Shown one piece after another: positions 1 through 10,664 of a stretch of 13,722 nucleotides of DNA. The stretch lies in IMG/VR virus record IMGVR_UViG_2778261570_000018, positions 1 through 13,722 of that record; one strand, 5' to 3'. Source of the stretch: a virus. Lineage: Duplodnaviria > Heunggongvirae > Uroviricota > Caudoviricetes. A program made the translations under genes and the position numbers. The notes under the pieces are model-generated. The model was not told the origin of the DNA. It saw only the letters and a program-made list of their open reading frames with translations, and searched no databases. Each line of letters begins with the position of its first letter. Position 1 is the stretch's first letter.

Positions 1-215
1 GTGCTGCGGATGATTTCCTGTCGGTGATTAACCCGGAATCGCTGGTGATCAAACAAGGCTTTGCTGAACCGTCGCTGAAAGAAGCGGTAGCGGGTAAAGC
101 ATTCCAGTTTGAGCGTGAAGGTTATTTCTGCCTCGACAGCCGCCATTCTACGGCGGAAAAACCGGTATTTAACCGCACCGTTGGGCTGCGTGATACCTGG
201 GCGAAGTTAGGTTAA
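1..215 (+). CDS. glnS: Glutaminyl-tRNA synthetase, C-terminal fragment (5' end lies outside the window)
   Basis: Frame 3 is open from the window edge and reads [71 protein letters not shown] recognise this as the C-terminus of enterobacterial GlnRS. Stop TAA is at 213-215. Confidence 0.9.
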
Positions 216-240: not shown

Positions 241-265
241 AAACGCCGCTACTGCGGCGTTTTTT
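241..265. terminator. Intrinsic terminator shared by convergent glnS and the Dam-like gene
   Basis: AAACGCCGC (241-249) / loop TACT / GCGGCGTTT (254-262), followed by a T-run to 265. The reverse strand also has T-rich sequence after the hairpin (TTTACTTTTT). The stop codon of the minus-strand gene (264-266) sits inside the T-run. Confidence 0.75.
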
Positions 266-1169
266 ACTTCATTATTGCAATTATATCGTTAGCAACTACA
301 CGTGTTGACGCCTTGCAGGAAACCGACCGTCTGGCTGCCATATGATGTACTTTAAACCCGTTTCCTTCATATAGCTCACGGATGTTTGGAGCACCACTAT
401 TTGTTATCACTACCTTAGCGCCGCGCTGGTGGGCATCCACCAACAGTGATACAAGCCGTTTTTGTTCATCGAAACGGAAGCTATTTCCTGAATAGCTGGT
501 AAATCCCTCTGTATCCGGAAGCGGTTCATACGGCGGATCACAAAAAATCACATCGTCTTCACCAGCCGCCTCGATGACGCTAGCAAAGTCTCCTGATACA
601 AAGGAAGTGTTTTTGAGTACGTCATCAGCCAAAAATGCCTCCATCTCTGCATGTGGGAAGTAGGGCGCTTTGTATTTGCCATACCCCACGTTGAACTCGC
701 CATTTTGGTTGTACCGCGTTACGCCATTAAAACAGTGACGATTAAGGTACAAAAATGCGGCAGCATGATGTAGCTGGTCATATTTTCCTCTGTTAAATGC
801 CTCACGCACTTCGAGGTAAGCGTCAGCGTTGTTGTAATTTTTGAAAAAACTATATGACAGCGTGACGAGCGAATGTCCTTCTCGCTGCAATGTCTGATAG
901 AAGTTAATCAGGTCACCGTTAATATCATTAAGCAGGTTGTGGCGAAATCCTGCATTCGTAAATACGGAACCGCCACCAACGAATGGTTCTATTAACCGCT
1001 TACCGTGTGGTAGATGCTCAAGCACTGTAGGCAATTCTGAGAATTTACCACCTACCCATTTGAATATCGGACGCTCATATTCATCCGGAGTCCGAATGGT
1101 GCGCATATAGCTAATTTCAGCCATCGTATCCTGTTTTTCTATGGCTATGCTTGCTATAGATTTACTCAT
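264..1169 (-). CDS. dam: Dam-family (D12 class) DNA N6-adenine methyltransferase
   Basis: Motifs FKWVGGK, IEPFVGGGSV (SAM site), FLYLNRHCFNG, GEFNV and catalytic DPPY, colinear with E. coli Dam by eye. Start set at ATG 1169 (MSKS...), with a GGGGG SD 6 nt upstream and an ATGAGTAA overlap with the upstream stop. ATG 1124 (MAEI...) is an alternative. The 333-aa form in the ORF track would run through the upstream gene. Confidence 0.85.
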   Translation of the reverse strand: MSKSIASIAIEKQDTMAEISYMRTIRTPDEYERPIFKWVGGKFSELPTVLEHLPHGKRLIEPFVGGGSVFTNAGFRHNLLNDINGDLINFYQTLQREGHSLVTLSYSFFKNYNNADAYLEVREAFNRGKYDQLHHAAAFLYLNRHCFNGVTRYNQNGEFNVGYGKYKAPYFPHAEMEAFLADDVLKNTSFVSGDFASVIEAAGEDDVIFCDPPYEPLPDTEGFTSYSGNSFRFDEQKRLVSLLVDAHQRGAKVVITNSGAPNIRELYEGNGFKVHHMAARRSVSCKASTRVVANDIIAIMK

Positions 1170-1842
1170 AGAGCACCCCCTTATTCGCTTCGAAAACTGC
1201 CTTTGCGAATCCATGTGGAGTAGCACTTCGAAAATTAGCCCTGTCAGGCCCTGGTGGCGCGGCATGGATTCTGTTATCTGGCTTGCCTAATGATTCGTCC
1301 ATTAGGGCATCAGGCATGACAAAGCCCTGGCCGCTCCAGAGGCATGTTTTTTTGGTGTAGTTATCTTCCTGACAATATGCAGTGAAGAAGTAAGGGTGAA
1401 AGATGTGATCTGGCTTACGCCAGAATGTCGATATTTTGCTGACCGGATTTTCAATCATGTACGGACAACCGATCATCTTTGCAATGTCATAACACTGCCA
1501 GACAACCTGCATTGCTTTGAACTGGAAAACCGGATCTTTATTAGCCTTGTCCGAAAACCAGCGCGCGCCGGAAACAGCCAGGTCAGTACACGGTGGGAAC
1601 CCGGCCAGAAACACGATGCGCTGCAAATTCTTACGGAGAAAAGCGTATACTTCATCGCTATCGATGATCGCACTAATACGCGTCAGAACGGCACCTGATT
1701 GCATCCGCTCGTCACTGGTCGATAAGTGCTGTGGATCGACGATAGCGGCATCGACACCGTATTCCAGCCAGGGGGCAACCATTGCCCCCGTAAAATCACA
1801 AAGACTCACAACAAGCGGTCGGTTATTATCGTTCTGCTTCAC
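1162..1842 (-). CDS. Compact C5-cytosine-methyltransferase-like protein (about 226 aa)
   Basis: Motif IV-like [19 protein letters not shown] (PC catalytic dipeptide), motif VI-like MIENP, degenerate motif [10 protein letters not shown], and C-terminal [15 protein letters not shown] resembling motif X. Start chosen at GTG 1842, with GGAGG 9 nt upstream and a 17-nt overlap with the rdgC-like stop. The ATG at 1914 would lie deep inside the upstream gene. Confidence 0.55.
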
Positions 1843-2731
1843 CGCCAATGGCCTCCACCAGCGCGTTAAACAGTGCAGATAATTCGCCCGTAAAGAGCAC
1901 GAAATCAGCATCAAATCGTTGTGCTACATCCTCCCGGTCGATATCGTCGTTCTGGTCATAGAGATCATCACAGAATGTCAGGGCTTTGATACTCATATCA
2001 TCGTTGACTCTGAACGACGCACGGTCCATCCAGTTAATTGCAACGGTCGTAGCTACTTTCCCCGCCTCAATGTGAGACATAATCTCGTCGGACTGTAGAT
2101 CAACTTTGTTGCAGCGAACGGCACCACCATTATCGAGCAGACCCTTTAATGTGGCGTCTTCACCTGCTGTAAATCCGGCAGGGAAGCCGCTTTTAAACCA
2201 CTCGGTCATTGTAATTTCCAGCGGTTCGCGTGGTGTGAATGGAATGACAGGCAGGCTGCCGAGCGACTTTCGCAATAAAGCCAGCTGGTCCTCTGCCTTT
2301 TTGGCGCTGCTTGCCTCAACGAATACCAGATGGTTGCTGCGGTCGATCAGGATTTTGGCGAGTGATTTTCTCGTGAACGCGCGAGGCAAAAGTGAATGCA
2401 GGACTTCATCTTTAAGACTGTCTCTTTCCGTTTTCTTCAGCTTGCGGGCTTGCTCTTCTTCGAGTTTCAGGACTTTTTTCTGCAACTCTTCCTTGAGCAC
2501 CTGCGAGGGGAGAATTTTTTCTTCTCGCTTATGCTGTATTAGCAGAAAACCCTGGTATTCATGGGTGAGGTTGTCACCAAGAACAGGTGTCCAACCGACT
2601 TTAGCTGTGTCCTGAGAACCGCAAGGAGTAAACACGAATTTGCTAAGAGCATCGGATACTTCTGCGGCACTCCAGTTAACTTCACGTGAAAGACGATAGA
2701 TGAAGATGTTTTTGAAAGCGACTGATCTCAT
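1826..2731 (-). CDS. rdgC: RdgC-family recombination-associated DNA-binding protein (mobile paralogue)
   Basis: 301 aa, colinear with E. coli RdgC as I recall it. Shared blocks: [100 protein letters not shown] and a GGEA.R C-terminus. Confidence 0.9.
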
Positions 2732-2737
2732 GTTTCA

Positions 2738-2781
2738 CCAATTGTGTTAGAAAATTCTATTCAATTATCTAACACAATTGG
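2738..2781 (-). promoter_or_regulatory. Perfect 14-bp inverted repeat flanking a TAGAAT hexamer, between the spike gene and rdgC
   Basis: CCAATTGTGTTAGA (2738-2751) and TCTAACACAATTGG (2768-2781) are exact reverse complements, separated by a 16-nt AT-rich spacer. On the minus strand the spacer contains TAGAAT. The downstream arm overlaps the weak GGTGA RBS of rdgC. Confidence 0.6.
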
Positions 2782-2790
2782 ATGTGTTTT

Positions 2791-3444
2791 CTATCCCTTC
2801 TTGAAATCAAAGTTGCTTGCGATAGCCTGGAAGGTGCCTCCAGCCTTGAAATCAATATTTTCGTCGGCTGTCACAGTAATGTTTTTGCCATTAACGCTGA
2901 TGTTATCGGCTGATTTGACGTTAACACTCCCTCCCGCATTCACTACTACATCAGCCGGACCAATGATGTATATCTGCCCTGATTCATTCATTCCAATCCT
3001 TGAGCCTGCTGCCGTATTCGCTATTTCATATCCACCGCCAGCCGTTCGCACTTCGAGCACATTGTTGCGGTGAATCACGAAATCTTTTGTCGCCGAAAAT
3101 TGCGGGCGGGGAGGCGCTCCGTCTACTTCTGGTGGCGTCCAGCCGCTACCATTGCCTGACGCCTCCGGCGCGACGTTTGGTACTCCGCCAGGCGCATCCT
3201 GAGCTGCGCCAACTATCATTGGGCGTCTGGTATCAATTCGACCATTAACATCCAGATAAGGAAACTCTACCCATACCAGGTCGCCTTTTACTGTAGGTAC
3301 AAAAGCGTTTCCGATGGGTAACAGGTATTCCGCCCAGGGTAGATCGTCATCAGGAACGCCATTCCAGTCAGGTAAAACACGGACTTGAGCACGCATAAGC
3401 CCTGCCGGGTGCACAGTTCCAACAATTTGCGCTCTACGCTTCAT
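2791..3444 (-). CDS. Phage baseplate/tail-tip central spike (gp5 / gpV / VgrG-OB-like)
   Basis: The N-terminal pattern GTVHPAGLMRAQVRVLPDWNGVPDDDLPWAEYLLPIGNAFVPTVKGDLVWVEFPYLD...RPMIVGAA fits the gp5/gpV OB-fold signature. The C-terminus is beta-helix-like repeats (VNAGGSVNVKSADNISVNGKNITVTADENIDFKAGG). ATGA start/stop overlap with the upstream gene at 3441-3444. Confidence 0.65.
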   Translation of the reverse strand: MKRRAQIVGTVHPAGLMRAQVRVLPDWNGVPDDDLPWAEYLLPIGNAFVPTVKGDLVWVEFPYLDVNGRIDTRRPMIVGAAQDAPGGVPNVAPEASGNGSGWTPPEVDGAPPRPQFSATKDFVIHRNNVLEVRTAGGGYEIANTAAGSRIGMNESGQIYIIGPADVVVNAGGSVNVKSADNISVNGKNITVTADENIDFKAGGTFQAIASNFDFKKG

Positions 3445-4421
3445 TTGTTCGGCACTCCCAATATCATTCGTGTTGTGTAGCCTACGCGGTCTTCAAAGTG
3501 CGCAACATTTTTTACTATCAGCTTACGGGGCATTGATTCATCAATGCGGTTTTCCTGGTCATAGCGGTATACGATAATCTCTATCACCATTCCCGGTTTT
3601 ATATCAGGATTGCCTGCGACTTCTATATCCATTTTGGGGACGAGAGACAGCTGCATATTGCGAAGAGTTTCCATATCAGAGTCGGATATATAACGCACTG
3701 GGAGTGAGCTATCGCCATATTCGACGTAGCCATCGGTCATGGAATACCCAACAAAACGATATTGATTCTTTGCTGTTGTCGCATGTTCCTGTTGGAGTAG
3801 GCGCATTTTGGACAAAGTGTATTCTGCTTTAGGGTTATTCCCCTCGTAGGTAAATGATGGCGTTTGCTTCATCAGATCAGCCAGGGTGTAAAAGTTAAAT
3901 TCCCCCCGGCATACCCAACATAATGCACCTTTGTCTCGCGCTATCTCCGAAAGCATTTTTGACGGTTTGTCACCGGCATTCAGATGATATGTAACTGCGC
4001 GTTTTAGCACGCTGCTGGTAATTTTAAGTTTGCCGGAATATGCCTTGAATATAGCGTCTGGTGTTTTGTTGGTATGTAAATTTGTGCGCGGGGAGGGGAT
4101 CTTAAACCTGCGCACGTCTTCACTGACAGCAATAACGGTAACAACATCACCAGCCAGCATTGCAGACGTAACAAAGAAATCTGTTTTAAAAGTGCCTGCA
4201 TTACCGTTTGGATCGCCCATTTCAGCCACCAGCGATGCACCGTATTTGGCTTTCCAGTCATCAATTACGGTGCCGGTAGCGTCATGAATTTCCAGTTTTA
4301 GCAAAGGGGCTTTGAGGCTGGTTTTTTCTACATATACTGCGGTAAAAATCCAGTCTCGTGGCACTTTGTTATCGTTAATGAGCACTGACTGTAGAAAATA
4401 TTGTTGTAACTCCTGGGCCAC
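3441..4421 (-). CDS. Probable tail/baseplate hub protein (gp27 / P2 gpD-like), 326 aa
   Basis: Position immediately upstream of, and coupled to, the spike gene. There is weak by-eye resemblance to the gpD/gp27 layout (LKLEIHDATG...GASLVAEMG...GTFKTDFFV...VTVIAVSED, then KPSKMLSEIARDKGALCWVCRGEFNFY). GTG start at 4421 lies 3 nt after the upstream stop (TGATAAGTG). Confidence 0.4.
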   Translation of the reverse strand: MAQELQQYFLQSVLINDNKVPRDWIFTAVYVEKTSLKAPLLKLEIHDATGTVIDDWKAKYGASLVAEMGDPNGNAGTFKTDFFVTSAMLAGDVVTVIAVSEDVRRFKIPSPRTNLHTNKTPDAIFKAYSGKLKITSSVLKRAVTYHLNAGDKPSKMLSEIARDKGALCWVCRGEFNFYTLADLMKQTPSFTYEGNNPKAEYTLSKMRLLQQEHATTAKNQYRFVGYSMTDGYVEYGDSSLPVRYISDSDMETLRNMQLSLVPKMDIEVAGNPDIKPGMVIEIIVYRYDQENRIDESMPRKLIVKNVAHFEDRVGYTTRMILGVPNK

Positions 4422-4424
4422 TTA

Positions 4425-5192
4425 TCACCCCATAGATATCGAGGTTTCGGTAATAATACGTTTTGCGTCCAACTCCCATGCTGTGATCACGTCTGCAATC
4501 ACACTTATCGGCGCTTGTGTGGCATAAATACGCTCTTCTCCAATTGGTGCTGAAACATCCGTAAAGCCGACTTCTTTGGCATCCTGTATCGAGCAAATCA
4601 ACGGGACCGGGACACGAACAAGGTGAGTGGTGGCTTCAAATTGTGTACCTGTCATCAGGCGAAGCCGTGCGCCCAGCGAATTACACATCAGACTCATGGT
4701 CGCTTTATCAGTTGCCATTAACGTAACGTCATACGTCAGAATGGCCTGGGTGTATTCCAGTTCTGCTAAAGGCATTCCGGTATCCGGTTCGCAAAAACTG
4801 GCTACTTTTTTGCGGTCAATCTGCTGATCATCGTTGATATAATTGATATCCATAGTGCGTGAGATATTGACCAGGGGGAGAGCATCCCGGTTAATGTTCT
4901 GGTTTTCAGGTTTTCTCCCTTGCCCGGCATTTGCGCGACGAACTGCTTTAAGAAACTCGATCGCATTGTCGAAACGGGCCACATAGACACGCTCTGCTGG
5001 TGGACGATTCAGGAATGACGCAAAGCGTTTTTCTTCCGGCGCGGGGGCCACCAGTAAGATATCAGAAAAAATGTTGCTGATTAGCGTCGCAAACGCGTTA
5101 TCCACGTTTTCAAAGCCCGTGGTCTGGAATTTTCCTGTGCGTGAGGTTTGCCATTCACCTGTTCGCGCCAGGAGGGTTTTATTTGAAGTCAT
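4425..5192 (-). CDS. Hypothetical protein, phage-associated (255 aa), possibly tail-tip component by position
   Basis: Long ORF with a GGAG SD 7 nt upstream of the ATG and an ATGA overlap with the upstream gene (5189-5192). I recognise no motifs. Confidence 0.6.
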   Translation of the reverse strand: MTSNKTLLARTGEWQTSRTGKFQTTGFENVDNAFATLISNIFSDILLVAPAPEEKRFASFLNRPPAERVYVARFDNAIEFLKAVRRANAGQGRKPENQNINRDALPLVNISRTMDINYINDDQQIDRKKVASFCEPDTGMPLAELEYTQAILTYDVTLMATDKATMSLMCNSLGARLRLMTGTQFEATTHLVRVPVPLICSIQDAKEVGFTDVSAPIGEERIYATQAPISVIADVITAWELDAKRIITETSISMG

Positions 5193-5980
5193 TCGATCAC
5201 TCCGTTTTGAGTCGTATCAAAATTCCTGGCAGGTATGCAGTAGTAAAGCGAACCAACATGTTGTGTGCCGTAGCTAAAAATACGGTGCACGTACCACCAG
5301 CGGCGGGCTACGCCGTTTACCATCTCTTCATTCCATTCAAGAATTGATCCGACGGGGACTTTATTTGCTGCAATACGCAGAATCAGAACATCATCGGTTA
5401 AGCCATCCTGCTCACCGTCTGCGTCAATCGCATGGAAAGAGTCACGCCCGTCCGGGTTATCCAGCACATAAACGATTTCAGGTTCCTGGTAAGTCAGTTC
5501 GCGCTGGTTGTTATCCAGTTCAGTGAATGACTCTTCTCCTGTTTCGTCGCTGACTACCCCATATGTGCCAACATCTGGTCGATATAAGAGAGCCTGAAAC
5601 GCGTCTGGGCTGGATTCAATAATCAGCATCCAGTCTGCGCGGATTTGGTCGTTAAAGGCTTTATGCCCGTTATAGCGTGCTTTTAACTGTGGAGTCGGTT
5701 CTCTGCCAGCCAGGGAAGATGGAAGTATGGCTATATCTGATTCGCCAGCATCCGGAGTAAGGCCACCGTTGCTATCAGCAAAATTATCATGGCTATCAGC
5801 TTTGGCGGCGGGTTGCTCTTCCAGAATGCTGAATGAATCCGAACCGGTATTGCCATGTTCCGGCGCGCCTCCTGCATTCGCTTCAATCGGCGCTGGCGTT
5901 TCTCTCTGCGTGCTGTCATGTTCTGACTCCTTACTTGCCAGGTTTGCATCGTCAGCAAACCATTCGTCAAAACGGCCCAT
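5189..5980 (-). CDS. Hypothetical protein with acidic, low-complexity N-terminal region (about 263 aa)
   Basis: Long ORF. Start set at ATG 5980 (MGRFDEW...) because GAGGA lies 5 nt upstream. The track start at 5992 is a TTG. The N-terminal ~100 aa are D/E/S/P/A-rich and the C-terminal part looks globular (..RRWWYVHRIFSYGTQHVGSLYYCIPARNFD). Confidence 0.6.
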   Translation of the reverse strand: MGRFDEWFADDANLASKESEHDSTQRETPAPIEANAGGAPEHGNTGSDSFSILEEQPAAKADSHDNFADSNGGLTPDAGESDIAILPSSLAGREPTPQLKARYNGHKAFNDQIRADWMLIIESSPDAFQALLYRPDVGTYGVVSDETGEESFTELDNNQRELTYQEPEIVYVLDNPDGRDSFHAIDADGEQDGLTDDVLILRIAANKVPVGSILEWNEEMVNGVARRWWYVHRIFSYGTQHVGSLYYCIPARNFDTTQNGVIE

Positions 5981-6074
5981 AAGCATCCTCAAAGGTCGAT
6001 CTGTCAGGTATCGAAAGGAAGATTTTCGGGAGATTGTGATTTTGGATGAAGGAGGGGGAATTCATAAAATGCAC

Positions 6075-6103
6075 TTGCGCACAGTGCAACGGTGCGCTAT
6101 AGT
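6075..6103 (+). promoter_or_regulatory. Candidate sigma70 promoter and operator of higBA-1
   Basis: TTGCGC (6075-6080), 17-nt spacer, TATAGT (6098-6103). The spacer carries nested inverted repeats GCGCAC(6077-6082)/GTGCGC(6092-6097) and TGCAC(6070-6074)/GTGCA(6084-6088), typical of an autoregulated TA operator. Confidence 0.55.
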
Positions 6104-6142
6104 TATGGCATTCAGTAATCCTCACGGAGGATCAAATGGCTA

Positions 6143-6445
6143 ATGACCAAAAAAATTAACATAAAGGATTTCAGGGATGCGTGGCTTGATGATTTTTTTG
6201 AATTTTCAACACCACATAGAAAGATACCTCCTGATATTCATATGACATTGTCACGGAAGTTGGACATTATCAATGCCGCAACTACCTGTAATGATTTAAG
6301 ATCACCACCAGGTAATCGGTATGAGGAACTGTCAGGGAAGCTAAATGGCTATTCATCAGTAAGGGTGAATAAGCAATATAGGTTAATTTTTAAGTGGGTT
6401 AACGGAAAGGCCGAGGACTTGTATCTCGACCCTCACAAATACTAA
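6143..6445 (+). CDS. higB: HigB-family (RelE/ParE superfamily, 'killer protein') type II toxin
   Basis: 100 aa. Contains RSPPGNRYEELSGKLNGYSSVRVNKQYRLIFKWVNGKAEDLYLDPHKY, characteristic of HigB toxins. It is followed by a cognate HTH antitoxin (toxin-first order typical of hig loci). Confidence 0.8.
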   Translation: MTKKINIKDFRDAWLDDFFEFSTPHRKIPPDIHMTLSRKLDIINAATTCNDLRSPPGNRYEELSGKLNGYSSVRVNKQYRLIFKWVNGKAEDLYLDPHKY

Positions 6446-6452
6446 AACAGAT

Positions 6453-6471
6453 ACCCGGTTACGAACCGGGT
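6453..6471 (+). promoter_or_regulatory. Intercistronic hairpin between higB-1 and higA-1
   Basis: ACCCGGT (6453-6459) / loop TACGA / ACCGGGT (6465-6471), a perfect 7-bp stem within an unusually long 70-nt toxin-antitoxin spacer. No T-run follows. Confidence 0.45.
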
Positions 6472-6515
6472 TCTGACCAGAGTCCACTTAATACGCACGC
6501 TAGTAAGGGCAAAAA

Positions 6516-6854
6516 ATGAAACAGGCAACCAGAAAACCGACGACCGTAGGTGATATCCTGCTGTACGAATACCTGGAGCCGTTAGAGCTGAAGATCAACG
6601 AGTTAGCAGAAATACTTCATGTTCATCGTAACACCGTAAGTGCTCTTGTTAATAATAATCGTAAGCTAACGATGGATATGGCATATCGCCTGGCAAAAGC
6701 ATTCGATACTTCTGTAGATTTTTGGATTAATCTTCAGACCGCAGTAGATCTGTGGGAAGTCGAAAATGATATGCGCGTTCAGGAAGAGTTAAGTCGTATC
6801 AATACTGCTGAAAAATTTATTTCTCAGCGGAACCTGAATAAAAAAGCAGCCTGA
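6516..6854 (+). CDS. higA: HigA-family (VapI/XRE HTH) antitoxin
   Basis: 112 aa. TVGDILLYEYLEPLELKINELAEILHVHRNTVSALVNNNRKLTMDMAYRLAKAFDTSVDFWINLQTAVDLW is the classic HigA/VapI HTH pattern. AAGGG SD lies 6 nt upstream. Confidence 0.85.
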   Translation: MKQATRKPTTVGDILLYEYLEPLELKINELAEILHVHRNTVSALVNNNRKLTMDMAYRLAKAFDTSVDFWINLQTAVDLWEVENDMRVQEELSRINTAEKFISQRNLNKKAA

Positions 6855-6873
6855 TATAGTAAAACACATACAA

Positions 6874-6905
6874 AAAGCCCACTTAGCAAGTGGGCTTTCC
6901 TTTGT
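6874..6905. terminator. Intrinsic terminator after higBA-1 (bidirectional shape)
   Basis: AAAGCCCACT (6874-6883) / loop TAGCA / AGTGGGCTTT (6889-6898), followed by CCTTTG. The A-run upstream supplies a U-run for the opposite strand. Confidence 0.75.
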
Positions 6906-6910
6906 AATTA

Positions 6911-7270
6911 ATGAACATTAAACCCATCCGTACAGAACAAGATTATGAGGCCGCACTGCGTGCGGTCGAACCGATGTTCGATAACGAACCGGAAATGAAT
7001 ACTCCGGAAGGTGATTTCTTTGAGGTTATGAGTCTTCTCATTGAGGAGTACGAGAAAAAACATTACCCAATTGAGCCACCATCACCTATTGAGGCCATTA
7101 AATTCCGTATGGAACAGCAAGGGCTGACCGTGAAGGATCTGGAACCGGCAATTGGTAAGTCAAACCGTGTTTACGAAGTGCTTAATGGGACACGAAATTT
7201 GACGTTACCTATGATTCGTCGTTTACATGCCCAGTTTGGTATTCCACTGGAAAGCCTGGTTGGCGTTTGA
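6911..7270 (+). CDS. Orphan HigA(YgjM)/COG5499-type HTH antitoxin-like regulator
   Basis: 119 aa. The N-terminal domain is MNIKPIRTEQDYEAALRAVEPMFDNEPEMNTPEGDFFEVMSLLIEEYEKKHYPI. The C-terminal HTH is IEAIKFRMEQQGLTVKDLEPAIGKSNRVYEVLNGTRNLTLPMIRRLHAQFGIPLESLV. This is the same architecture as E. coli HigA (YgjM) as I recall it. No partner toxin of the matching family is adjacent. Confidence 0.75.
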   Translation: MNIKPIRTEQDYEAALRAVEPMFDNEPEMNTPEGDFFEVMSLLIEEYEKKHYPIEPPSPIEAIKFRMEQQGLTVKDLEPAIGKSNRVYEVLNGTRNLTLPMIRRLHAQFGIPLESLVGV

Positions 7271-7275
7271 GTTTT

Positions 7276-7300
7276 GCGGTCTGGATGACCGCTGTTTTTA
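7276..7300 (+). terminator. Intrinsic terminator after the orphan HTH gene
   Basis: GCGGTC (7276-7281) / loop TGGAT / GACCGC (7287-7292), followed by TGTTTTTA. Confidence 0.65.
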
Positions 7301-7333
7301 TAAAAAATAGATACTAGAAATTTGGTAGCATAT

Positions 7334-8113
7334 ATGAGTACAGATTCATCAGTAAAGAAGACATCTGAATCAGATAAAGAAAATGAGTCCGTTGTTGATT
7401 CCGTCAAGAATACAATGGAATATGTTATAAAAGACAAAGTATTTAATAAGCTTTTTGCATATATTTTTATATCTTTTCTGGTTGTTAACTGGAGAGATAT
7501 ATTAATTTTGTTCAAATCAAAAGAAGATGTTCTATATACTCTGTCAATAGTTTTTACCGGTGAAAAAATACAATTTCTTGATGGCGAGATTTTACCTCCT
7601 TGGTTTGCCCACTTTTTCTTGCCGTTTTTCTATGGTGTGATTGCGTCGATTGTGGCACCAGTAATTACACTTGCGGTATCTTGCATTACAACTAAGGTGT
7701 ACTATAAAATAAAAATTTTGGACAATAAAACAGACGAAAACGAGAAAGAGAAATTAGCAAAAAGAGCCAAGAAAAGAGCTGAGCGTGAAATAGAGGCTAG
7801 CTATAGCCAACAAAAGCTGGATGAAAGAAAAAAAGAACTGGAAGACATTTTAAACAAAATAGAAGATGAAAAAGAAAAATATGATAAAATGAAAGAAAGG
7901 TTTGATGATGCCATAACGCTTACATATAAAAATATTCACATTTTGCCTACTCTGTATGAGAATAGGAAATGTAAAATTGAAACTCCGCAGGATTTATATG
8001 ATTTTATTGCAGCAATAAAGAAAACATCATTCTATAGTACTGATTTTAATGAATTGTTCTCTGATATTTCTCGATTGTATTCTGAAATGCAAACTGATTT
8101 ATCAGAAAAGTGA
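7334..8113 (+). CDS. Hypothetical membrane-anchored coiled-coil protein (about 259 aa), no recognised family
   Basis: Uninterrupted ORF in very AT-rich DNA. ATG 7334 is preferred; the track start at 7322 is a TTG. It has hydrophobic segments LFAYIFISFLVVNWRDILILF and WFAHFFLPFFYGVIASIVAPVITLAVSCI. These are followed by a K/E/R-rich heptad-like stretch (KEKLAKRAKKRAEREIEASYSQQKLDERKKELEDILNKIEDEKEKYDKMKERF) and a ~65-aa C-terminal region. Confidence 0.6.
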   Translation: MSTDSSVKKTSESDKENESVVDSVKNTMEYVIKDKVFNKLFAYIFISFLVVNWRDILILFKSKEDVLYTLSIVFTGEKIQFLDGEILPPWFAHFFLPFFYGVIASIVAPVITLAVSCITTKVYYKIKILDNKTDENEKEKLAKRAKKRAEREIEASYSQQKLDERKKELEDILNKIEDEKEKYDKMKERFDDAITLTYKNIHILPTLYENRKCKIETPQDLYDFIAAIKKTSFYSTDFNELFSDISRLYSEMQTDLSEK

Positions 8114-8114
8114 A

Positions 8115-8137
8115 AGCCTGGCATAGACCACCAGGCT
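8115..8137. terminator. Hairpin shared by convergent genes 7334-8113 (+) and 8149-9342 (-)
   Basis: AGCCTGG (8115-8121) / 9-nt loop / CCAGGCT (8131-8137). T-rich sequence follows on the minus strand (TTCACTTTTCT) and more weakly on the plus strand. Confidence 0.5.
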
Positions 8138-8148
8138 ATATGTGTGGT

Positions 8149-9342
8149 TTATGCTTTTTTTACATACGCCATAAACATTTTTTCAGCATGTTCTTGTGGC
8201 GTTCCTGCCATGACAAGCGCATCAATGAACGCCTGCTTCTTCAGTGCGAACTGATCGGCCAGGCGTTGCTGAAGCTCCTTGTTTTTCTGTTTCTCACGTT
8301 GCAACGCCGCTTCTTTTGCTGCCGCCCGTTTTTTCTGTGCGTCTGACAACTTTCTGGCCTTGGTCAGTTGGTCACGTAGCTTGTCAATCTTGCCGTTGTC
8401 CTTTGCCAGTTTTGTGCTTAAAGCGGCCTGGCGCTTCTGATAGAGCCTCCATTCTCGCTTGGCAGCGTCAACGTTCGTTTTACTGCTACGATTGCGATTA
8501 AACTCCTTCTCGTCTTCTTTTGAGAAGTGTTTGGTTGTACGGCGGCGATCGTCACCAAATGCAATTTGCGTTGCAGCCTTTTGTAGCGCACGAGCAATAC
8601 TCATTTGCCAACTGGCGGACTGTAACCGCGTCATTGAGTGGATCACGTGTTTACAGGCGACGCCTTGCAGCTTCGGGTTGCGAACTTTTGGATAGGCGTA
8701 TTCTTTTGGCGGTGCCAGGGCAAAGTTACCCGCAGTGGCGATGTAACGATACCAGTATTGATGACGACCACAGTCACAATCGAAAGACACTCGCCCGGCG
8801 CACAGTGATTTAGTGATTTTGAGAGCTGATTTATCGTCTTCTGCGATGTCATCAACCATCTGATCCCATTCTTCAAAGCGTATCCGGACGATATGGTGCT
8901 GGTGGACGGATATATCCGATGCTTCTACGCGGATATTAATCACATTGTGGCGAAGAGATACGGGTGTAGCTCTTTTGATACCAGATCCGTCATCCACGGC
9001 GTTATTTGCACGCTTAATATCGATAGCCTGGCTGGATGCCACCAGCTGGGCGTATGTGATGCCAGCCGTCTTGCTGTCATATTTTTCGCGCGTTTTACTC
9101 CGTAGCTTTTCGAAGCCTTTCAGATCGTCTCGCGTAAAGAACGTGCCGCCTTTTTTCTTCCCTAACTTGAGAATATCTTCGACGGATTTGTTCCTAAGTC
9201 TGCCTGGCGTCAGCGTCCGGTGAGCTTGTCGGCGCTTACGGGTTTGTTCTTTCCTGATAAGGTCGAATAAACGCGTGAAGTCCTTAGAGGACAGACCGTC
9301 AGTGATATAGCGCCCGTCCTGGTTTTTCAGGAAATCAGGCAT
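8149..9342 (-). CDS. Phage-associated protein with SWIM-like CxC...CxH zinc-finger motif and lysine-rich coiled-coil C-terminus (397 aa)
   Basis: FDCDCGRHQYW...(38 residues)...GVACKHVIH resembles a SWIM finger with an expanded linker. The C-terminal ~110 aa are K/R/Q/A-rich heptad-like. GGAG SD lies 7 nt upstream, and there is an 8-nt overlap (ATGCCTGA) with the upstream gene. Confidence 0.5.
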   Translation of the reverse strand: MPDFLKNQDGRYITDGLSSKDFTRLFDLIRKEQTRKRRQAHRTLTPGRLRNKSVEDILKLGKKKGGTFFTRDDLKGFEKLRSKTREKYDSKTAGITYAQLVASSQAIDIKRANNAVDDGSGIKRATPVSLRHNVINIRVEASDISVHQHHIVRIRFEEWDQMVDDIAEDDKSALKITKSLCAGRVSFDCDCGRHQYWYRYIATAGNFALAPPKEYAYPKVRNPKLQGVACKHVIHSMTRLQSASWQMSIARALQKAATQIAFGDDRRRTTKHFSKEDEKEFNRNRSSKTNVDAAKREWRLYQKRQAALSTKLAKDNGKIDKLRDQLTKARKLSDAQKKRAAAKEAALQREKQKNKELQQRLADQFALKKQAFIDALVMAGTPQEHAEKMFMAYVKKA

Positions 9343-9664
9343 TTTCTATCTCCGGTTCCGCGCTCGCGTAATCACGGATCTTGTTCCTCAGCCATGCCAC
9401 ATCAGGAAGAGTTAACGTGGTCCCGGCGGGCATTTCTTCCATTTCTGACTCATGGCCCACCAGCACCCGGAATACCCAGCGCAAATCTGCATTGCCATAC
9501 GCCCTGTAGGCTGCAAGGTCTGAACGATATACTTCATCAATCTTTATCGTGTACTGGAAATTATCAGAGTGATACTCCGATACCCGCTTAATCATTTCCT
9601 GGTGAAACAGCGCACGAAAAATATCGTCTTCAATGTACCTATCGTCGAGTCTGCTATAGCCCAT
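9335..9664 (-). CDS. Hypothetical protein (109 aa), coupled to the SWIM-like gene
   Basis: ORF with a GAGGGG SD 7 nt upstream of ATG 9664. It overlaps the start of the downstream gene. I recognise no motifs. Confidence 0.55.
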   Translation of the reverse strand: MGYSRLDDRYIEDDIFRALFHQEMIKRVSEYHSDNFQYTIKIDEVYRSDLAAYRAYGNADLRWVFRVLVGHESEMEEMPAGTTLTLPDVAWLRNKIRDYASAEPEIENA

Positions 9665-9726
9665 AACAAAGCCCCTCAGTCATAACCTGGGGGAAACTGT
9701 ATGTAGGGTGTGAAATGCGAGAAAGC

Positions 9727-9750
9727 AGCGTCACCGGGCCTGGTGACGCT
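9727..9750 (-). terminator. Hairpin/terminator after higBA-2
   Basis: AGCGTCACC (9727-9735) / loop GGGCCT / GGTGACGCT (9742-9750), a 9-bp stem. On the minus strand it is followed by GCTTTCTCGCATTTC (moderately U-rich). Confidence 0.5.
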
Positions 9751-9756
9751 GTGAAG

Positions 9757-10038
9757 TTATGCGTGGAAAAATAATGGACGGATGTTTGGGCGAGCGGTTT
9801 GCGAAGCAACCCAAAGCTCATACTGAGATTGCATACCGGTCCACATTTCGGCACTGGTTCCAAGAGCGGACTCCAGACGAAGTGCCATATCAGCAGAAAT
9901 GCCTGCTTTTTCGTTCAGAATTCGGGAAAGTGCCGTGCGAGTAATGCCTAATGCAGCAGCGGCGTCTGTGACTGACATGTCTCCCAAATATTCACGAAGA
10001 ACCGCGCCAGGATGCGCGGGATTATGCATACGACTCAT
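9757..10038 (-). CDS. higA: HigA-family (VapI/XRE HTH) antitoxin, second copy
   Basis: [76 protein letters not shown] is the canonical HigA/VapI pattern. ATG 10038 has an AGGA SD 5 nt upstream. The track start at 10050 is a TTG overlapping the toxin stop. Confidence 0.85.
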
Positions 10039-10046
10039 AGTGTTCC

Positions 10047-10328
10047 TCAATGATAATCCTGATAGTCAACTAGAATTGCGTCTTCTCCTTCAAATCGGAA
10101 GGTAAGTCGCCAGTTACCGTTTACCGATATTGCCCAGTGACCTTTAAGGTCCGCCCCCTTTAGAGGGTGCAATTCCCATCCAGGCGCAGACATATCGTCC
10201 GGGCGTTTAGCTGTATTAAGAGCAGTCAATTGAATGCGTAGCTTAACCGCATGTTTGGCCTGAATGCCTGCGGTTGAACCTGTCTTGAAAAAGCGTTCAA
10301 GCCCTTTATGGCGAAATGACTTAATCAA
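10047..10328 (-). CDS. higB: HigB-family type II toxin, second copy
   Basis: (L/M)[39 protein letters not shown]...[40 protein letters not shown] matches the HigB 'killer protein' pattern, which normally begins MIKSF. I therefore place the start at TTG 10328 (GGATGGA upstream) rather than at the track start 10391, which lies in the promoter. Confidence 0.8.
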
Positions 10329-10354
10329 AATAATTCCATCCGTGCGCGTAACCT

Positions 10355-10391
10355 GTGTATATACACTACACGCAGAGGGAGCGAAATGCAA
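10355..10391 (-). promoter_or_regulatory. Candidate higBA-2 promoter with perfect 12-bp palindromic operator
   Basis: Minus strand: TTGCAT (10391-10386), 17-nt spacer, TAGTGT (10368-10363). The perfect palindrome GTGTATATACAC (10355-10366) overlaps the -10 hexamer. Confidence 0.5.
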
Positions 10392-10529
10392 GCACTATCC
10401 GTATAGACAGAGTTTCTTCGCCGCCCTGGAATTTATTGACTGTCAACAAGTGACTTTCATTAATCTTAAGGCATGGACCAGCTCGATAGTGAGCTGGGTG
10501 TTATTTACCGATCGAATGGATTCGAAAAG

Positions 10530-10664
10530 ATGAATATTTTTAATAAGCTGATTGATTTATTGAATAAATTCATTAGTGCTTCTTTAACTCAGCAGGTATC
10601 CACGTCAGTGTTTTTGTTACTCTTCTACCTGGTATTGAGGGAGTTAACAAAGCTACTAATGTGA
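10530..10664 (+). CDS. Possible small hydrophobic peptide (44 aa; 63 aa if started at 10473)
   Basis: MNIFNKLIDLLNKFISASLTQQVSTSVFLLLFYLVLRELTKLLM has a C-terminal hydrophobic helix. The DNA is AT-rich, the SD is weak, and the stop abuts the stop of the convergent 217-aa gene. It could be a chance ORF. Confidence 0.2.
   Translation: MNIFNKLIDLLNKFISASLTQQVSTSVFLLLFYLVLRELTKLLM

What the first reader, a model, noticed from the sequence alone, without database searches (positions are those of the whole stretch)
5981..8140. Opposite-strand accessory cassette splitting a minus-strand phage gene series, bounded by bidirectional terminators
The genes at 8149-9664 and 264-5980 all read leftward. 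The four genes between them (higB, higA, the orphan HTH and the membrane/coiled-coil gene) read rightward and have visibly lower GC. The cassette contains three hairpin terminators, and at least the one at 6874-6905 has A/T runs on both sides. Leftward read-through from the 8149-9342 gene into the hub/spike operon would therefore be blocked. This looks like a cargo (moron or defence) hotspot inserted into a phage operon. The left block must then use its own weak promoter in 5981-6075 or be silent.
Basis: partly seen in the sequence, partly recalled or inferred. Interest (0 to 1): 0.55.

Follow-up and report, generated by a model that had tools for sequence, protein, structure and literature searches.

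The report
Cargo slot splitting phage baseplate operon
This is a swap-in/swap-out slot for accessory genes (toxin-antitoxin genes plus a fast-evolving membrane protein) lodged inside the tail/baseplate operon of a D6-like (P1-family) plasmid prophage; it is a clear but ordinary example of a phage "moron" hotspot, and the phage genes downstream of it have their own late promoter.

Summary
Four rightward genes with GC 0.38 sit between leftward phage genes with GC 0.50, and stable hairpins with U-tracts punctuate the interval.

The window is a D6-like, P1-family phage-plasmid. In P1, genes 26-25-7-24-6-5 are contiguous behind one late promoter. Here about 2.1 kb (6043-8148) is inserted between genes 25 and 7.

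Across 39 related intervals (window included), the 25|7 interval runs from 0 to 2902 bp, with at least 13 gene architectures. The hotspot reading is therefore supported.

The cargo is a mosaic of three modules that are exchanged independently:
- HigB/HigA (PF05015 toxin, TIGR02607 antitoxin).
- An orphan HigA. In sister plasmids its cognate PF09907 HigB toxin occupies the position where higBA now sits. The orphan has lost its promoter and ribosome-binding site, and it is truncated in most E. coli relatives.
- A hypervariable two-segment membrane/coiled-coil protein (phrog_8191, function unknown). A homolog sits antisense in the S-V slot of P2-like prophages.

A perfect copy of a motif I derived, AAATCACA-N7-(-10), lies at 6042-6022. 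It occurs 8 times in D6 against 0.25 expected, always upstream of late genes. It is conserved upstream of gene 7 in every occupied variant among the close D6-like relatives.

Known kind, new member.

The parts
5189..5980 (-). P1 gene 7 homolog (tail protein). First gene of the left late block 7-24-6-5.
   Evidence: The D6 annotation reads 'similar to P1 gene 7'. tblastn identity across loci is 48-100%. The ATG at 5980 has a GAGGA upstream.
5981..6042 (-). Conserved backbone leader of gene 7. It is not cargo.
   Evidence: It aligns across all cargo variants, including those with 318-, 573- and 928-bp intervals. Homology between the window and L018 ends exactly at 6042.
6022..6042 (-). LP7: predicted D6-type late promoter, AAATCACA-atctccc-GAAAAT. 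The expected transcription start is about 6015, roughly 35 nt upstream of the gene 7 ATG.
   Evidence: The motif has 8 perfect copies in D6 against 0.25 in shuffles (maximum 2). All are intergenic and co-oriented with late genes. It is present upstream of gene 7 in every occupied variant examined, with one mismatch in the Citrobacter locus L005. No experiment supports this.
6043..6903 (+). higBA module: promoter/operator, toxin, spacer hairpin, antitoxin and terminator. It is swapped as one unit.
   Evidence: Breakpoints against L018-type relatives fall at 6042/6043 and 6903/6904. The module occurs in 76 complete E. coli genomes, always on plasmids.
6070..6103 (+). Predicted sigma-70 promoter TTGCGC (6075-6080)-N17-TATAGT (6098-6103). 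It is overlapped by the inverted repeats TGCACTTGCGCACAGTGCA and GCGCAC..GTGCGC, which are a candidate HigA operator.
   Evidence: Read directly from the sequence. These elements are found only in higBA-bearing variants. This is inference; the consensus promoter scan did not list this site.
6143..6445 (+). HigB-type RelE-fold toxin (100 aa).
   Evidence: PF05015, 2.2e-35, 121 bits against a cut-off of 27. phrog_3066 'toxin of TA system', 4.9e-37. PDB chain 6F8S_B 'Putative Killer protein', 5.5e-14, and Proteus HigB at about 1e-3.
6453..6471 (.). Stable hairpin in the 70-nt toxin-antitoxin spacer. It has no U-tract on the plus strand and a U-rich tail on the minus strand.
   Evidence: -16.5 kcal/mol with z = -3.45 on the plus strand; -16.1 kcal/mol with z = -4.35 on the minus strand.
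6516..6854 (+). HigA antitoxin (112 aa, XRE helix-turn-helix).
   Evidence: TIGR02607 antidote_HigA, 102.5 bits against a cut-off of 47.7. PF01381. PDB 2EBY E. coli YbaQ, 1e-53.
6874..6898 (.). Bidirectional intrinsic terminator at the right end of the higBA module.
   Evidence: 11-13 bp stem, -17.9 kcal/mol (plus) and -18.7 kcal/mol (minus), with U-tracts on both strands.
6911..7270 (+). Orphan HigA-type antitoxin (119 aa) of the E. coli K-12 HigA / PD-lambda-2B N-domain type. It is a relic of a PF09907-HigB/HigA pair.
   Evidence: PADLOC PD-Lambda-2_B, 3.8e-43, but covering only profile positions 1-119 of 402. PDB 5IFG E. coli HigA, 1.2e-7. In L018-23, L029 and L030 it follows a PF09907 HigB (3.3e-34) with a GGAG ribosome-binding site inside the toxin's 3' end. 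In the window that DNA is replaced up to about 5 nt from its ATG. It is full length in only 42 of 93 E. coli plasmids that carry it.
7276..7292 (+). Plus-strand intrinsic terminator after the orphan antitoxin.
   Evidence: GCGGTCTGGATGACCGC followed by TGTTTTT, -11.3 kcal/mol, z = -3.54. The same hairpin ends the cassette in L021/L022, which lack the membrane gene.
7334..8113 (+). Hypervariable membrane/coiled-coil protein (259 aa from the ATG at 7334; 263 aa from the TTG at 7322). Function unknown.
   Evidence: phrog_8191, 7.5e-91, 'unknown function'. No hit above the Pfam or NCBIfam cut-offs and no PADLOC hit. Hydrophobic segments lie at about residues 40-60 and 90-122, and a 30-residue stretch is 73% charged. 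Alleles are 18-64% identical between elements, including ones whose flanks are 98-100% identical. This allele is in only 3 of 5426 E. coli genomes.
8115..8162 (.). Convergent terminator region between the membrane gene and gene 25.
   Evidence: A minus-strand hairpin at 8115-8137 is followed by UUUCACUUUU. A plus-strand alternative hairpin at 8120-8155 is followed by U7. Most cargo variants have some GC-rich hairpin at this edge; L026 and L033 show no obvious one.
8149..9664 (-). P1 gene 25 (8149-9342) and gene 26 (9335-9664) homologs. Together they form the right late block.
   Evidence: D6 annotation. tblastn to P1 gene 25 gives 57% identity.
9696..9716 (-). LP26-like late promoter, ATTTCACA-ccctaca-TACAGT.
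   Evidence: When the box is relaxed to A[AT][AT]TCACA, this is the only additional genome-wide match in D6, and it falls exactly upstream of gene 26 (9 copies against 0.92 expected).

Best explanation
The window is part of a D6-like, P1-family phage-plasmid. The P1 baseplate/tail late operon 26-25-7-24-6-5 has been split here, between genes 25 and 7, by a cargo (moron) slot.

The slot in this element (6043 to about 8148) holds three modules that are exchanged independently by recombination:
1. A self-contained higB-higA type II toxin-antitoxin unit. It has its own predicted promoter/operator and a bidirectional terminator. It most likely serves plasmid-prophage maintenance (post-segregational killing).
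2. An orphan HigA antitoxin. It was left behind when the higBA unit replaced the PF09907-type HigB toxin gene that precedes it in sister plasmids. It has lost its promoter and ribosome-binding site and is decaying in most relatives.
3. A prophage-expressed inner-membrane/coiled-coil protein that is always placed next to gene 25. It evolves, or is swapped, far faster than the backbone. Its most likely role is superinfection exclusion or another conflict function. That role is inferred only.

The phage tolerates the split because the two halves of the old operon are separate late transcription units. An LP26-like promoter would drive genes 26 and 25 up to the convergent terminator at 8115-8137. 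A dedicated late promoter, LP7 (6042-6022), lies in the conserved 62-bp leader and would drive genes 7-24-6-5.

Shown here: the variability of the slot, the module boundaries, the family assignments, the hairpins, and the motif enrichment and conservation.

Inferred: that the motif is an activator-dependent late promoter, that the hairpins terminate transcription in vivo, and what the TA pair and the membrane protein do.
For: Identity of the element:
- 97.8% identity to E. coli plasmid pAPEC201603, and 95.9% to phage D6 over 84% of the window.

Ancestral state:
- In P1, genes 25 and 7 are 3 bp apart, and LP26 is the only late promoter annotated for the block.
- The interval is 17 bp in an Enterobacter relative and 0 bp in three metagenomic relatives.

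Variability:
- 32 distinct interval sequences from 17 to 2902 bp, plus three loci with no interval. GC is 0.36-0.49 in the intervals, always below the flanks (0.49-0.58).
- Contents include nothing, a higB remnant, an AlpA-like helix-turn-helix protein, PF09907-HigB+HigA, a 179-aa unknown protein, the membrane gene alone, various combinations of these, and umuDC plus the membrane gene in a Klebsiella remnant.

Module boundaries:
- Against L018: 6042/6043, 6903/6904 and 7351.
- Against D6: 7351/7352 and 8040/8041.

Counts in 5426 complete E. coli genomes:
- Gene 25 in 124, higBA in 76, PF09907 higB in 19, orphan HigA in 93 (42 full length), and this membrane allele in 3.

Family assignments.

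Late promoter:
- AAATCACA-N7-NANNNT occurs 8 times in D6 (shuffle mean 0.25, maximum 2). Every copy lies 50-157 nt upstream of a late gene: orf16 (a peptidoglycan hydrolase), prt, ddrB, R, pmgB, 23, 7 and mat.
- The relaxed box adds only the site before gene 26.
- LP7 is conserved in all occupied variants, including relatives with only 72-82% identical gp25.

Hairpins.

Membrane-protein family in mobile elements:
- A homolog lies antisense between gpV and gpS of P2-like prophages.
- Others lie in a phage-plasmid-like contig and in accessory islands.
Against: - There are no transcript data. The late-promoter motif is my own derivation, and it differs from the P1 consensus AAGTNACTT-N4-TANNNT. 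The LP7 -10 element (GAAAAT/GACAAT) starts with G, unlike most other copies, so LP7 could be weak.
- Some read-through or antitermination from LP26 across the slot cannot be excluded. The P1 literature suspects antiterminators (PMC10695390).
- The membrane protein is present in most lineages with an occupied slot, including distant ones. It may be an old semi-core gene rather than cargo.
- The direction of the toxin replacement is inferred by parsimony: the orphan decays only when it is unpaired.
- No function was tested. The AlphaFold model of the membrane protein was too poor to use (pLDDT 57.7).
Confidence: 0.8

Rival explanations
1. The four rightward genes form one multi-component anti-phage defence system. 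One candidate is a PD-lambda-2-like tripartite HigB / HigA-fusion / accessory system, in which the membrane protein acts as effector or sensor.
For: The orphan HigA matches PADLOC PD-Lambda-2_B at 3.8e-43. The toxin that pairs with it in sister plasmids matches PD-Lambda-2_A at 1e-41. PD-lambda-2 is an experimentally validated three-gene abortive-infection system (PMC9519451). The membrane gene often follows the HigA gene.
Against: - The PD-Lambda-2_B match covers only profile positions 1-119 of 402. The C-terminal peptidase domain, which is the toxic part of PD-lambda-2B (PMC9519451), is absent.
- The window has no PD-Lambda-2_A gene and no PD-lambda-2C-like gene. The membrane protein has no PADLOC hit.
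- The modules occur independently: the membrane gene alone (L034/L035), PF09907-HigB+HigA alone (L021/L022, L005), and higBA with no membrane gene (L003).
- The orphan HigA is truncated or frameshifted in most higBA-bearing relatives while the other genes stay intact.
Confidence: 0.07
2. The terminators isolate the left block, so genes 7-24-6-5 are silent or only weakly expressed and the element is a defective prophage.
For: Strong hairpins with U-tracts face leftward transcription at 8137-8115, 6900-6872 and 6471-6453. No high-scoring sigma-70 promoter lies in 5981-6142 on the minus strand. The closest relative, pAPEC201603, has a disrupted gene 24.
Against: - Phage D6, deposited as a phage genome with host E. 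coli C600, has the same insertion and the same leader.
- All four genes are intact in the window.
- The leader holds a perfect copy of the motif that precedes the other late operons, and that copy is conserved across cargo variants.
- P1-family late promoters are activator-dependent and lack a -35 element, so a sigma-70 consensus scan would not detect them (P1 annotation).
Confidence: 0.05
3. The membrane/coiled-coil gene is not cargo. It is a conserved phage gene with a role in the phage's own cycle (for example lysis timing, tail assembly or DNA entry), and only the TA genes are inserted cargo.
For: It always abuts gene 25. It is present in most D6-like elements and in relatives whose gp25 is only 72-82% identical (L032, L034, L035), where it can be the sole occupant. 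Its N-terminal two-segment hydrophobic region is well conserved (17 invariant columns).
Against: - It is absent from P1, L004, L005, L021/L022, L024, L031, L033 and L003. Several of these are long contigs with otherwise intact late genes.
- It lies on the opposite strand from the late genes, has GC 0.31-0.33, and has no late-promoter motif on its strand.
- It is split into two ORFs in L019.
- It is retained intact in a degraded Klebsiella remnant whose gene 25 is frameshifted and which shows no gene 7 match in the 6 kb of flank examined. That pattern fits a host- or lysogen-beneficial gene.
Confidence: 0.12

Closest known systems
Phage morons, in the sense described for lambdoid phages HK97/HK022: extra genes inserted between genes that are adjacent in related phages. 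This definition is from my own knowledge; no paper was read for it.
   Same: The DNA is inserted between two genes (25 and 7) that are adjacent in P1. Its base composition differs from the flanks. It carries its own predicted promoter and terminators. It sits inside a late structural operon and is dispensable in relatives.
   Different: It is not a single gene but a mosaic of three exchangeable modules. The interrupted operon has acquired, or retains, a second late promoter immediately downstream of the slot. The host element is a plasmid prophage, so addiction modules are plausible cargo.
Plastic regions and hotspots of P1-like phage-plasmids (Pfeifer and Rocha; bioRxiv 10.1101/2022.06.24.497495, PMC10879196).
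   Same: Conserved phage genes flank loci where accessory genes turn over among closely related phage-plasmids.
   Different: That work reports that few hotspots flank highly conserved phage functions. This slot lies inside the baseplate/tail operon. In the loci examined it holds TA and membrane genes rather than resistance genes.
HigBA type II toxin-antitoxin systems (Proteus Rts1 HigBA; the PDB 6F8S pair, which from my own knowledge is Pseudomonas putida GraTA). The D6 higA-higB pair has been noted as a second post-segregational killing system (PMC6799933).
   Same: The toxin lies upstream of the antitoxin. The toxin is a PF05015 RelE-fold protein and the antitoxin is a TIGR02607 XRE-HTH protein. 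Palindromes overlap the predicted promoter.
   Different: A 70-nt spacer with a stable hairpin separates toxin and antitoxin. The pair sits inside a phage structural operon. A second, unrelated HigA without a toxin follows it.
PD-lambda-2 defence system (Vassallo et al. 2022, PMC9519451).
   Same: The orphan HigA, and the PF09907 HigB present in sister plasmids, are close sequence relatives of PD-lambda-2B (N-terminal domain) and PD-lambda-2A.
   Different: There is no peptidase domain, no third component and, in this window, no toxin. It is a plain HigBA relative reduced to its antitoxin.
The non-essential S-V ('orf30') slot of P2-like phages, and prophage inner-membrane superinfection-exclusion morons such as HK97 gp15. 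Both are from my own knowledge; no paper was read for either.
   Same: A homolog of the membrane/coiled-coil protein lies on the opposite strand between gpS and gpV in P2-like prophages. It is a small inner-membrane protein encoded inside a tail operon.
   Different: There is no sequence similarity to any characterised exclusion protein, and no phenotype is known for this family (phrog_8191, 'unknown function').

Membership tests
Phage moron / cargo hotspot | The insertion lies between genes that are adjacent in related phages. | tested here: met
   In P1, genes 25 and 7 are 3 bp apart. L004 has 17 bp and L038-40 have 0 bp.
Phage moron / cargo hotspot | Content varies among close relatives that share conserved flanks. 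| tested here: met
   There are 32 distinct interval sequences and at least 13 architectures, with flanks 92-100% identical within the D6 group.
Phage moron / cargo hotspot | Base composition differs from the flanks. | tested here: met
   GC is 0.38 in the interval against 0.50 in the flanks.
Phage moron / cargo hotspot | The insert has its own promoter and terminator and is expressed from the prophage. | tested here: inconclusive
   The terminators are well supported. The promoter TTGCGC-N17-TATAGT was read from the sequence only. Expression cannot be tested with these tools.
HigBA type II toxin-antitoxin (6143-6854) | The toxin belongs to the HigB/RelE-fold family. | tested here: met
   PF05015, 121 bits against a cut-off of 27. 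PDB 6F8S_B and the Proteus HigB chains also match.
HigBA type II toxin-antitoxin (6143-6854) | The antitoxin is a HigA-type XRE helix-turn-helix protein. | tested here: met
   TIGR02607 equivalog, 102.5 bits against a cut-off of 47.7.
HigBA type II toxin-antitoxin (6143-6854) | Reversed gene order: the toxin gene lies upstream of the antitoxin gene in one operon. | tested here: met
   The toxin is at 6143-6445 and the antitoxin at 6516-6854, on the same strand. The hairpin between them has no plus-strand U-tract.
HigBA type II toxin-antitoxin (6143-6854) | The toxin is toxic and is neutralised by the antitoxin; the pair stabilises the plasmid. | not testable with these tools
   This needs expression and plasmid-loss assays.
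PD-lambda-2 defence system | Component A: a HigB-like toxin. | tested here: not met
   No PD-Lambda-2_A match exists in the window. Only sister plasmids carry one, at 1e-41.
PD-lambda-2 defence system | Component B: a HigA-like helix-turn-helix domain fused to a C-terminal peptidase. | tested here: not met
   The 119-aa protein matches only profile positions 1-119 of 402.
PD-lambda-2 defence system | Component C: an accessory protein related to a phage P4 antitoxin. | tested here: not met
   No PADLOC hit was found for the fourth gene or for any neighbour tested.
P1-family activator-dependent late promoter | A conserved box at fixed spacing upstream of a -10 hexamer, with no -35 element, repeated in front of the late operons. 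| tested here: met
   P1 uses a 9-bp box, N4, then the -10 hexamer, in 6 annotated promoters. D6 uses an 8-bp box AAATCACA, N7, then the -10 hexamer: 8-9 copies against 0.25-0.92 expected, all before late genes.
P1-family activator-dependent late promoter | The P1 box sequence AAGTNACTT. | tested here: not met
   There are 42 copies with at most 1 mismatch in D6 against 42.3 expected, and none lies before gene 7. The D6 group therefore uses a different box.
P1-family activator-dependent late promoter | Dependence on Lpa, with transcription late in infection. | not testable with these tools
   D6 encodes an lpa homolog (orf4). No transcript data exist.

The most novel reading that the evidence does not exclude
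The 25|7 junction may be an evolved, transcriptionally insulated docking site: a convergent terminator on one side and a dedicated late promoter on the other. Its anchor occupant would be a member of an unrecognised, rapidly diversifying family of prophage inner-membrane/coiled-coil conflict proteins (superinfection exclusion or abortive infection). That family would be recurrently placed antisense inside the tail/baseplate operons of unrelated myoviruses (P1-like and P2-like). In addition, the retained orphan HigA could act as an anti-addiction gene, letting this plasmid displace incompatible sister plasmids that carry the PF09907 HigB toxin.
Probability: 0.25. Interest if true: 0.6.

Novelty: new member of a known kind. 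Interest (0 to 1): 0.38.

Why it matters
D6-like and P1-like phage-plasmids are common in E. coli and Salmonella and are known to move accessory genes. This analysis adds four things:

1. A precisely delimited cargo slot inside an essential structural operon, together with the regulatory arrangement that makes it tolerable. This shows how phages accommodate morons without losing late-gene expression.
2. A defined neutral insertion site for engineering P1/D6-type vectors.
3. A clean natural example of toxin-antitoxin turnover. A toxin gene is replaced by a complete new pair, and the old antitoxin is left to decay.
4. A small, fast-evolving family of membrane proteins (phrog_8191) worth testing for phage exclusion.

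None of this overturns current ideas.

Tried and rejected
1. I first suspected that the inverted repeat at 6070-6088 was a P1-type late promoter. I rejected this. The annotated P1 late promoters give AAGTNACTT-N4-TANNNT. The repeat occurs only in higBA-bearing variants. It fits a HigA operator overlapping a sigma-70 promoter better.
2. Scanning with the P1 late box showed no enrichment in D6 (42 copies against 42.3 expected) and no site before gene 7. A different motif then had to be derived from the D6 upstream regions.
3. The P1 C1 operator consensus has no match in the window with up to 3 mismatches. There is therefore no evidence that the cargo is under immunity control.
4. The AlphaFold2 model of the membrane protein, built from a 7-sequence alignment, had mean pLDDT 57.7 and pTM 0.25. 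That is too poor to use, so I ran no fold search.
5. Pfam, NCBIfam and PADLOC gave nothing above cut-off for the membrane protein. The word-indexed homolog search found only 9 proteins. The exhaustive profile search found 87 cluster representatives, and none carries an annotation.
6. The contexts of more distant family members lie in accessory regions but say nothing about function.
7. The P1 genome paper (PMC523184) and the D6 genome paper (PMC5800970) are not held. I could not check whether the D6 authors already described the late-promoter motif or this variable interval.

Full report
**What the window is**

Megablast places the whole window on about 90-kb E. coli plasmids. The best match is pAPEC201603 (97.8% identity over 96% of the window). 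Phage D6 matches at 95.9% over 84%.

The annotations of those records and of P1 give the following gene map:
- The 3' end of a plasmid-borne glnS (24-215, plus strand).
- Then, all on the minus strand: dmt, a cytosine methylase, hrdC/rdgC, and P1 genes 5, 6, 24 and 7 (down from 5980).
- Four plus-strand genes (6143-8113).
- Then, on the minus strand: P1 genes 25 (8149-9342) and 26 (9335-9664), a second higA/higB pair, and mat.

The element is therefore a D6-like member of the P1 family of phage-plasmids.

**Check of the observation**

The strand switch is real.

The interval between the gene 7 start and the gene 25 stop has GC 0.380. The two flanking genes have GC 0.496. The membrane gene falls to 0.31-0.33.

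There are four stable hairpins rather than three:
- 6453-6471: -16.5 kcal/mol, with a U-rich tail on the minus strand only.
- 6874-6898: -17.9 kcal/mol (plus) and -18.7 kcal/mol (minus), with U-tracts on both strands.
- 7276-7292: -11.3 kcal/mol, plus strand only.
- 8115-8162: a convergent site. A minus-strand hairpin followed by UUUCACUUUU lies immediately after the gene 25 stop. An alternative plus-strand hairpin followed by U7 lies after the membrane gene.

**Is it a variable hotspot?**

Yes. In P1, genes 25 and 7 are 3 bp apart, and the block 26-25-7-24-6-5 has one annotated late promoter, LP26.

I fetched 40 related loci through the gene 25 protein and measured the 25|7 interval. There were 32 distinct interval sequences, plus three loci with no interval. 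Interval GC was always below flank GC.

The arrangements found were:

| Interval | Loci | Content |
|---|---|---|
| 0 bp | L038-40 | none |
| 17 bp | L004 (Enterobacter) | none |
| 318 bp | L031 | remnant of a higB 5' end |
| 573 bp | L024 | AlpA-like helix-turn-helix protein |
| 848 bp | L021/22 | PF09907 HigB plus the 119-aa HigA |
| 876-885 bp | L034/35 | membrane gene alone |
| 928 bp | L033 | 179-aa unknown protein |
| 950 bp | L005/37 | another PF09907 HigB/HigA pair |
| about 1640 bp | L018, L019, L023, L029, L030 | PF09907 HigB, HigA and membrane gene |
| 1697 bp | L032 | PF09907-type HigB, long HigA and membrane gene |
| 1817 bp | L003 | higBA, frameshifted HigA and a 98-aa unknown protein |
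| 1914 bp | nine loci | higBA, HigA truncated to 66 aa, and membrane gene |
| 2099-2168 bp | D6 and the window type | higBA, HigA and membrane gene |
| 2902 bp | L026 | higBA, frameshifted HigA, membrane gene and the unknown protein of L033 |

A degraded P1-like remnant in Klebsiella grimontii has umuDC plus the membrane gene at the same place.

**Anatomy of the cargo**

BLAST breakpoints show three modules:
- Against L018-type plasmids, homology runs 5189-6042, 6904-7351 and 8154-9342.
- Against D6 it runs 5189-7351 and 8041-9342.

*Module 1 (6043-6903): a complete higBA unit.*
- The toxin is PF05015 (121 bits).
- The antitoxin is TIGR02607 (102.5 bits). It is close to E. coli YbaQ.
- The toxin's best solved relative is PDB chain 6F8S_B. 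From my own knowledge, this is the GraT toxin.
- Upstream I read a TTGCGC-N17-TATAGT promoter overlapped by palindromes. These are present only in higBA-bearing variants.
- The unit ends with the bidirectional terminator at 6874-6898.

*Module 2 (6904 to about 7300): the 'orphan HTH'.*
- It is a HigA of the E. coli K-12 HigA type (PDB 5IFG).
- It also matches the N-terminal 119 positions of the 402-position PADLOC model for PD-lambda-2B.
- In sister plasmids it is preceded by a PF09907 HigB (3.3e-34; PD-Lambda-2_A 1e-41), with a GGAG ribosome-binding site inside the toxin's 3' end.
- In the window that DNA is replaced up to about 5 nt from the HigA ATG. The gene now follows a terminator and has no Shine-Dalgarno sequence.
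- In complete E. coli genomes, higBA occurs in 76 plasmids and the PF09907 toxin in 19. The HigA occurs in 93, of which only 42 are full length.
- Truncated or frameshifted copies occur only where the cognate toxin is missing.
- The simplest history is that a toxin gene was replaced by a whole new TA pair. That is a viable route, whereas losing the antitoxin first would not be. The old antitoxin is now decaying.

*Module 3 (about 7300-8148): the membrane/coiled-coil protein.*
- It has two hydrophobic segments and a stretch that is 73% charged.
- It matches only phrog_8191, 'unknown function'.
- Its alleles are 18-64% identical to the window's, even in elements whose flanking genes are 98-100% identical.
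- The window allele is in 3 of 5426 E. coli genomes.
- An exhaustive profile search finds only 87 cluster representatives.
- One homolog lies on the opposite strand between gpS and gpV in P2-like prophages. From my own knowledge, that junction is a known non-essential slot in P2.
- The AlphaFold model was unusable (pLDDT 57.7).

**How the phage lives with the split operon**

The annotated P1 late promoters give the consensus AAGTNACTT-N4-TANNNT. That box is not enriched in D6.

Comparing the upstream regions of the D6 late operons revealed a different motif, AAATCACA-N7-NANNNT.
- It has 8 perfect copies in the 91-kb D6 genome, against 0.25 expected (maximum 2 in 100 shuffles).
- Every copy lies 50-157 nt upstream of, and co-oriented with, a late gene: orf16 (a peptidoglycan hydrolase), prt, ddrB, R, pmgB-sit, 23, 7 and mat.
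- Relaxing the box to A[AT][AT]TCACA adds one site in the whole genome, exactly upstream of gene 26.

In the window, the gene 7 copy is at 6042-6022 on the minus strand. It is present in every occupied variant examined, including relatives with 72-82% identical gp25, and with one mismatch in the Citrobacter locus. Relatives with no slot (P1, L004) have no room for it.

I therefore infer two late transcription units:
- LP26 (9716-9696) to genes 26 and 25, ending at the terminator at 8137-8115.
- LP7 to genes 7-24-6-5.

This is inference from motif statistics, position and analogy with P1. No transcript data exist, and the LP7 -10 element (GAAAAT) is atypical.

It is also hard to reconcile with D6, which is deposited as a phage genome and carries the same arrangement.

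**What it is not**

It is not a PD-lambda-2 system. It has no A component, no peptidase domain and no C component (PMC9519451). The four genes are not one system either, because the modules occur separately.

No P1-type C1 operator is present.

**Comparison with known systems, and novelty**

The arrangement fits the phage moron concept (from my own knowledge). It also fits the plastic regions already described for P1-like phage-plasmids (bioRxiv 10.1101/2022.06.24.497495). The D6 higBA pair has already been noted as a second addiction system (PMC6799933).

What I could not find described:
- The delimitation of this slot.
- Its insulation by a dedicated late-promoter motif.
- The toxin-replacement history of the orphan antitoxin.
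- The recurrence of the hypervariable membrane protein in P2-like tail operons.

I could not read the D6 genome paper to check whether it covers any of this.

Verdict: a well-supported new member of a known kind, of moderate interest.

Noticed in passing
window 9717-10664 (higA2 9757-10050, higB2 10047-10328, minus strand): There is a second cargo slot between mat and the LP26-like promoter. The window carries a second HigB (PF05015, 5.8e-21) and HigA pair that phage D6 lacks. The mat-to-gene-26 gap is 331 bp in most D6-like loci. It is 1002-1003 bp with this pair in 5 loci, 1125 bp in L026 and 1667 bp in L019. The genes are contiguous in distant relatives. A Klebsiella remnant has hicAB there.
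   Followed up: partly
D6 genome (L045/L046); window 6042-6022, 9716-9696, 11475-11455: The D6-type late-promoter motif A[AT][AT]TCACA-N7-NANNNT has 9 copies in D6 against 0.92 expected. It differs from the P1 box AAGTNACTT-N4-TANNNT. This implies that the late activators of the two phages recognise different boxes.
   Followed up: yes
window 10448-10456: A perfect P1-type late box, AAGTGACTT, sits at the same relative position as the shared LP26/LPpmgL box of P1. It is conserved in D6 at 71096. However, the box is not enriched genome-wide in D6, and no good -10 element follows it on the minus strand. It could be a relic or a functional site.
   Followed up: partly
window 6446-6515: An unusually long 70-nt spacer separates the higB stop from the higA start. 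It contains a -16.5 kcal/mol hairpin with no plus-strand U-tract. It might tune the toxin:antitoxin ratio or mRNA stability.
   Followed up: no
L047 (Klebsiella grimontii CP067380) 4232-8345: This chromosomal P1-like remnant keeps an intact umuDC and an intact membrane/coiled-coil gene next to a frameshifted gene 25. No gene 7 match was found in the 6 kb of flank examined. A Cap4-nuclease gene lies nearby.
   Followed up: partly
window 8149-9342 (gp25): The tail protein gp25 contains a CxC...CxH motif (FDCDCGRHQ...GVACKHVIH) that resembles a SWIM zinc finger. No Pfam or NCBIfam family is detected.
   Followed up: no
window 24-215 and upstream in L001/L002: The phage-plasmid carries a full-length glutaminyl-tRNA synthetase gene. 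This caused the 5438 chromosomal hits in the first search. It is already noted in the D6 literature (PMC6799933).
   Followed up: no
L033 interval 152-691; L026 interval 2186-2665; L003 interval 1478-1774: Alternative cargo proteins of 179/159 aa and 98 aa have no Pfam, PHROG or PADLOC match at all.
   Followed up: partly
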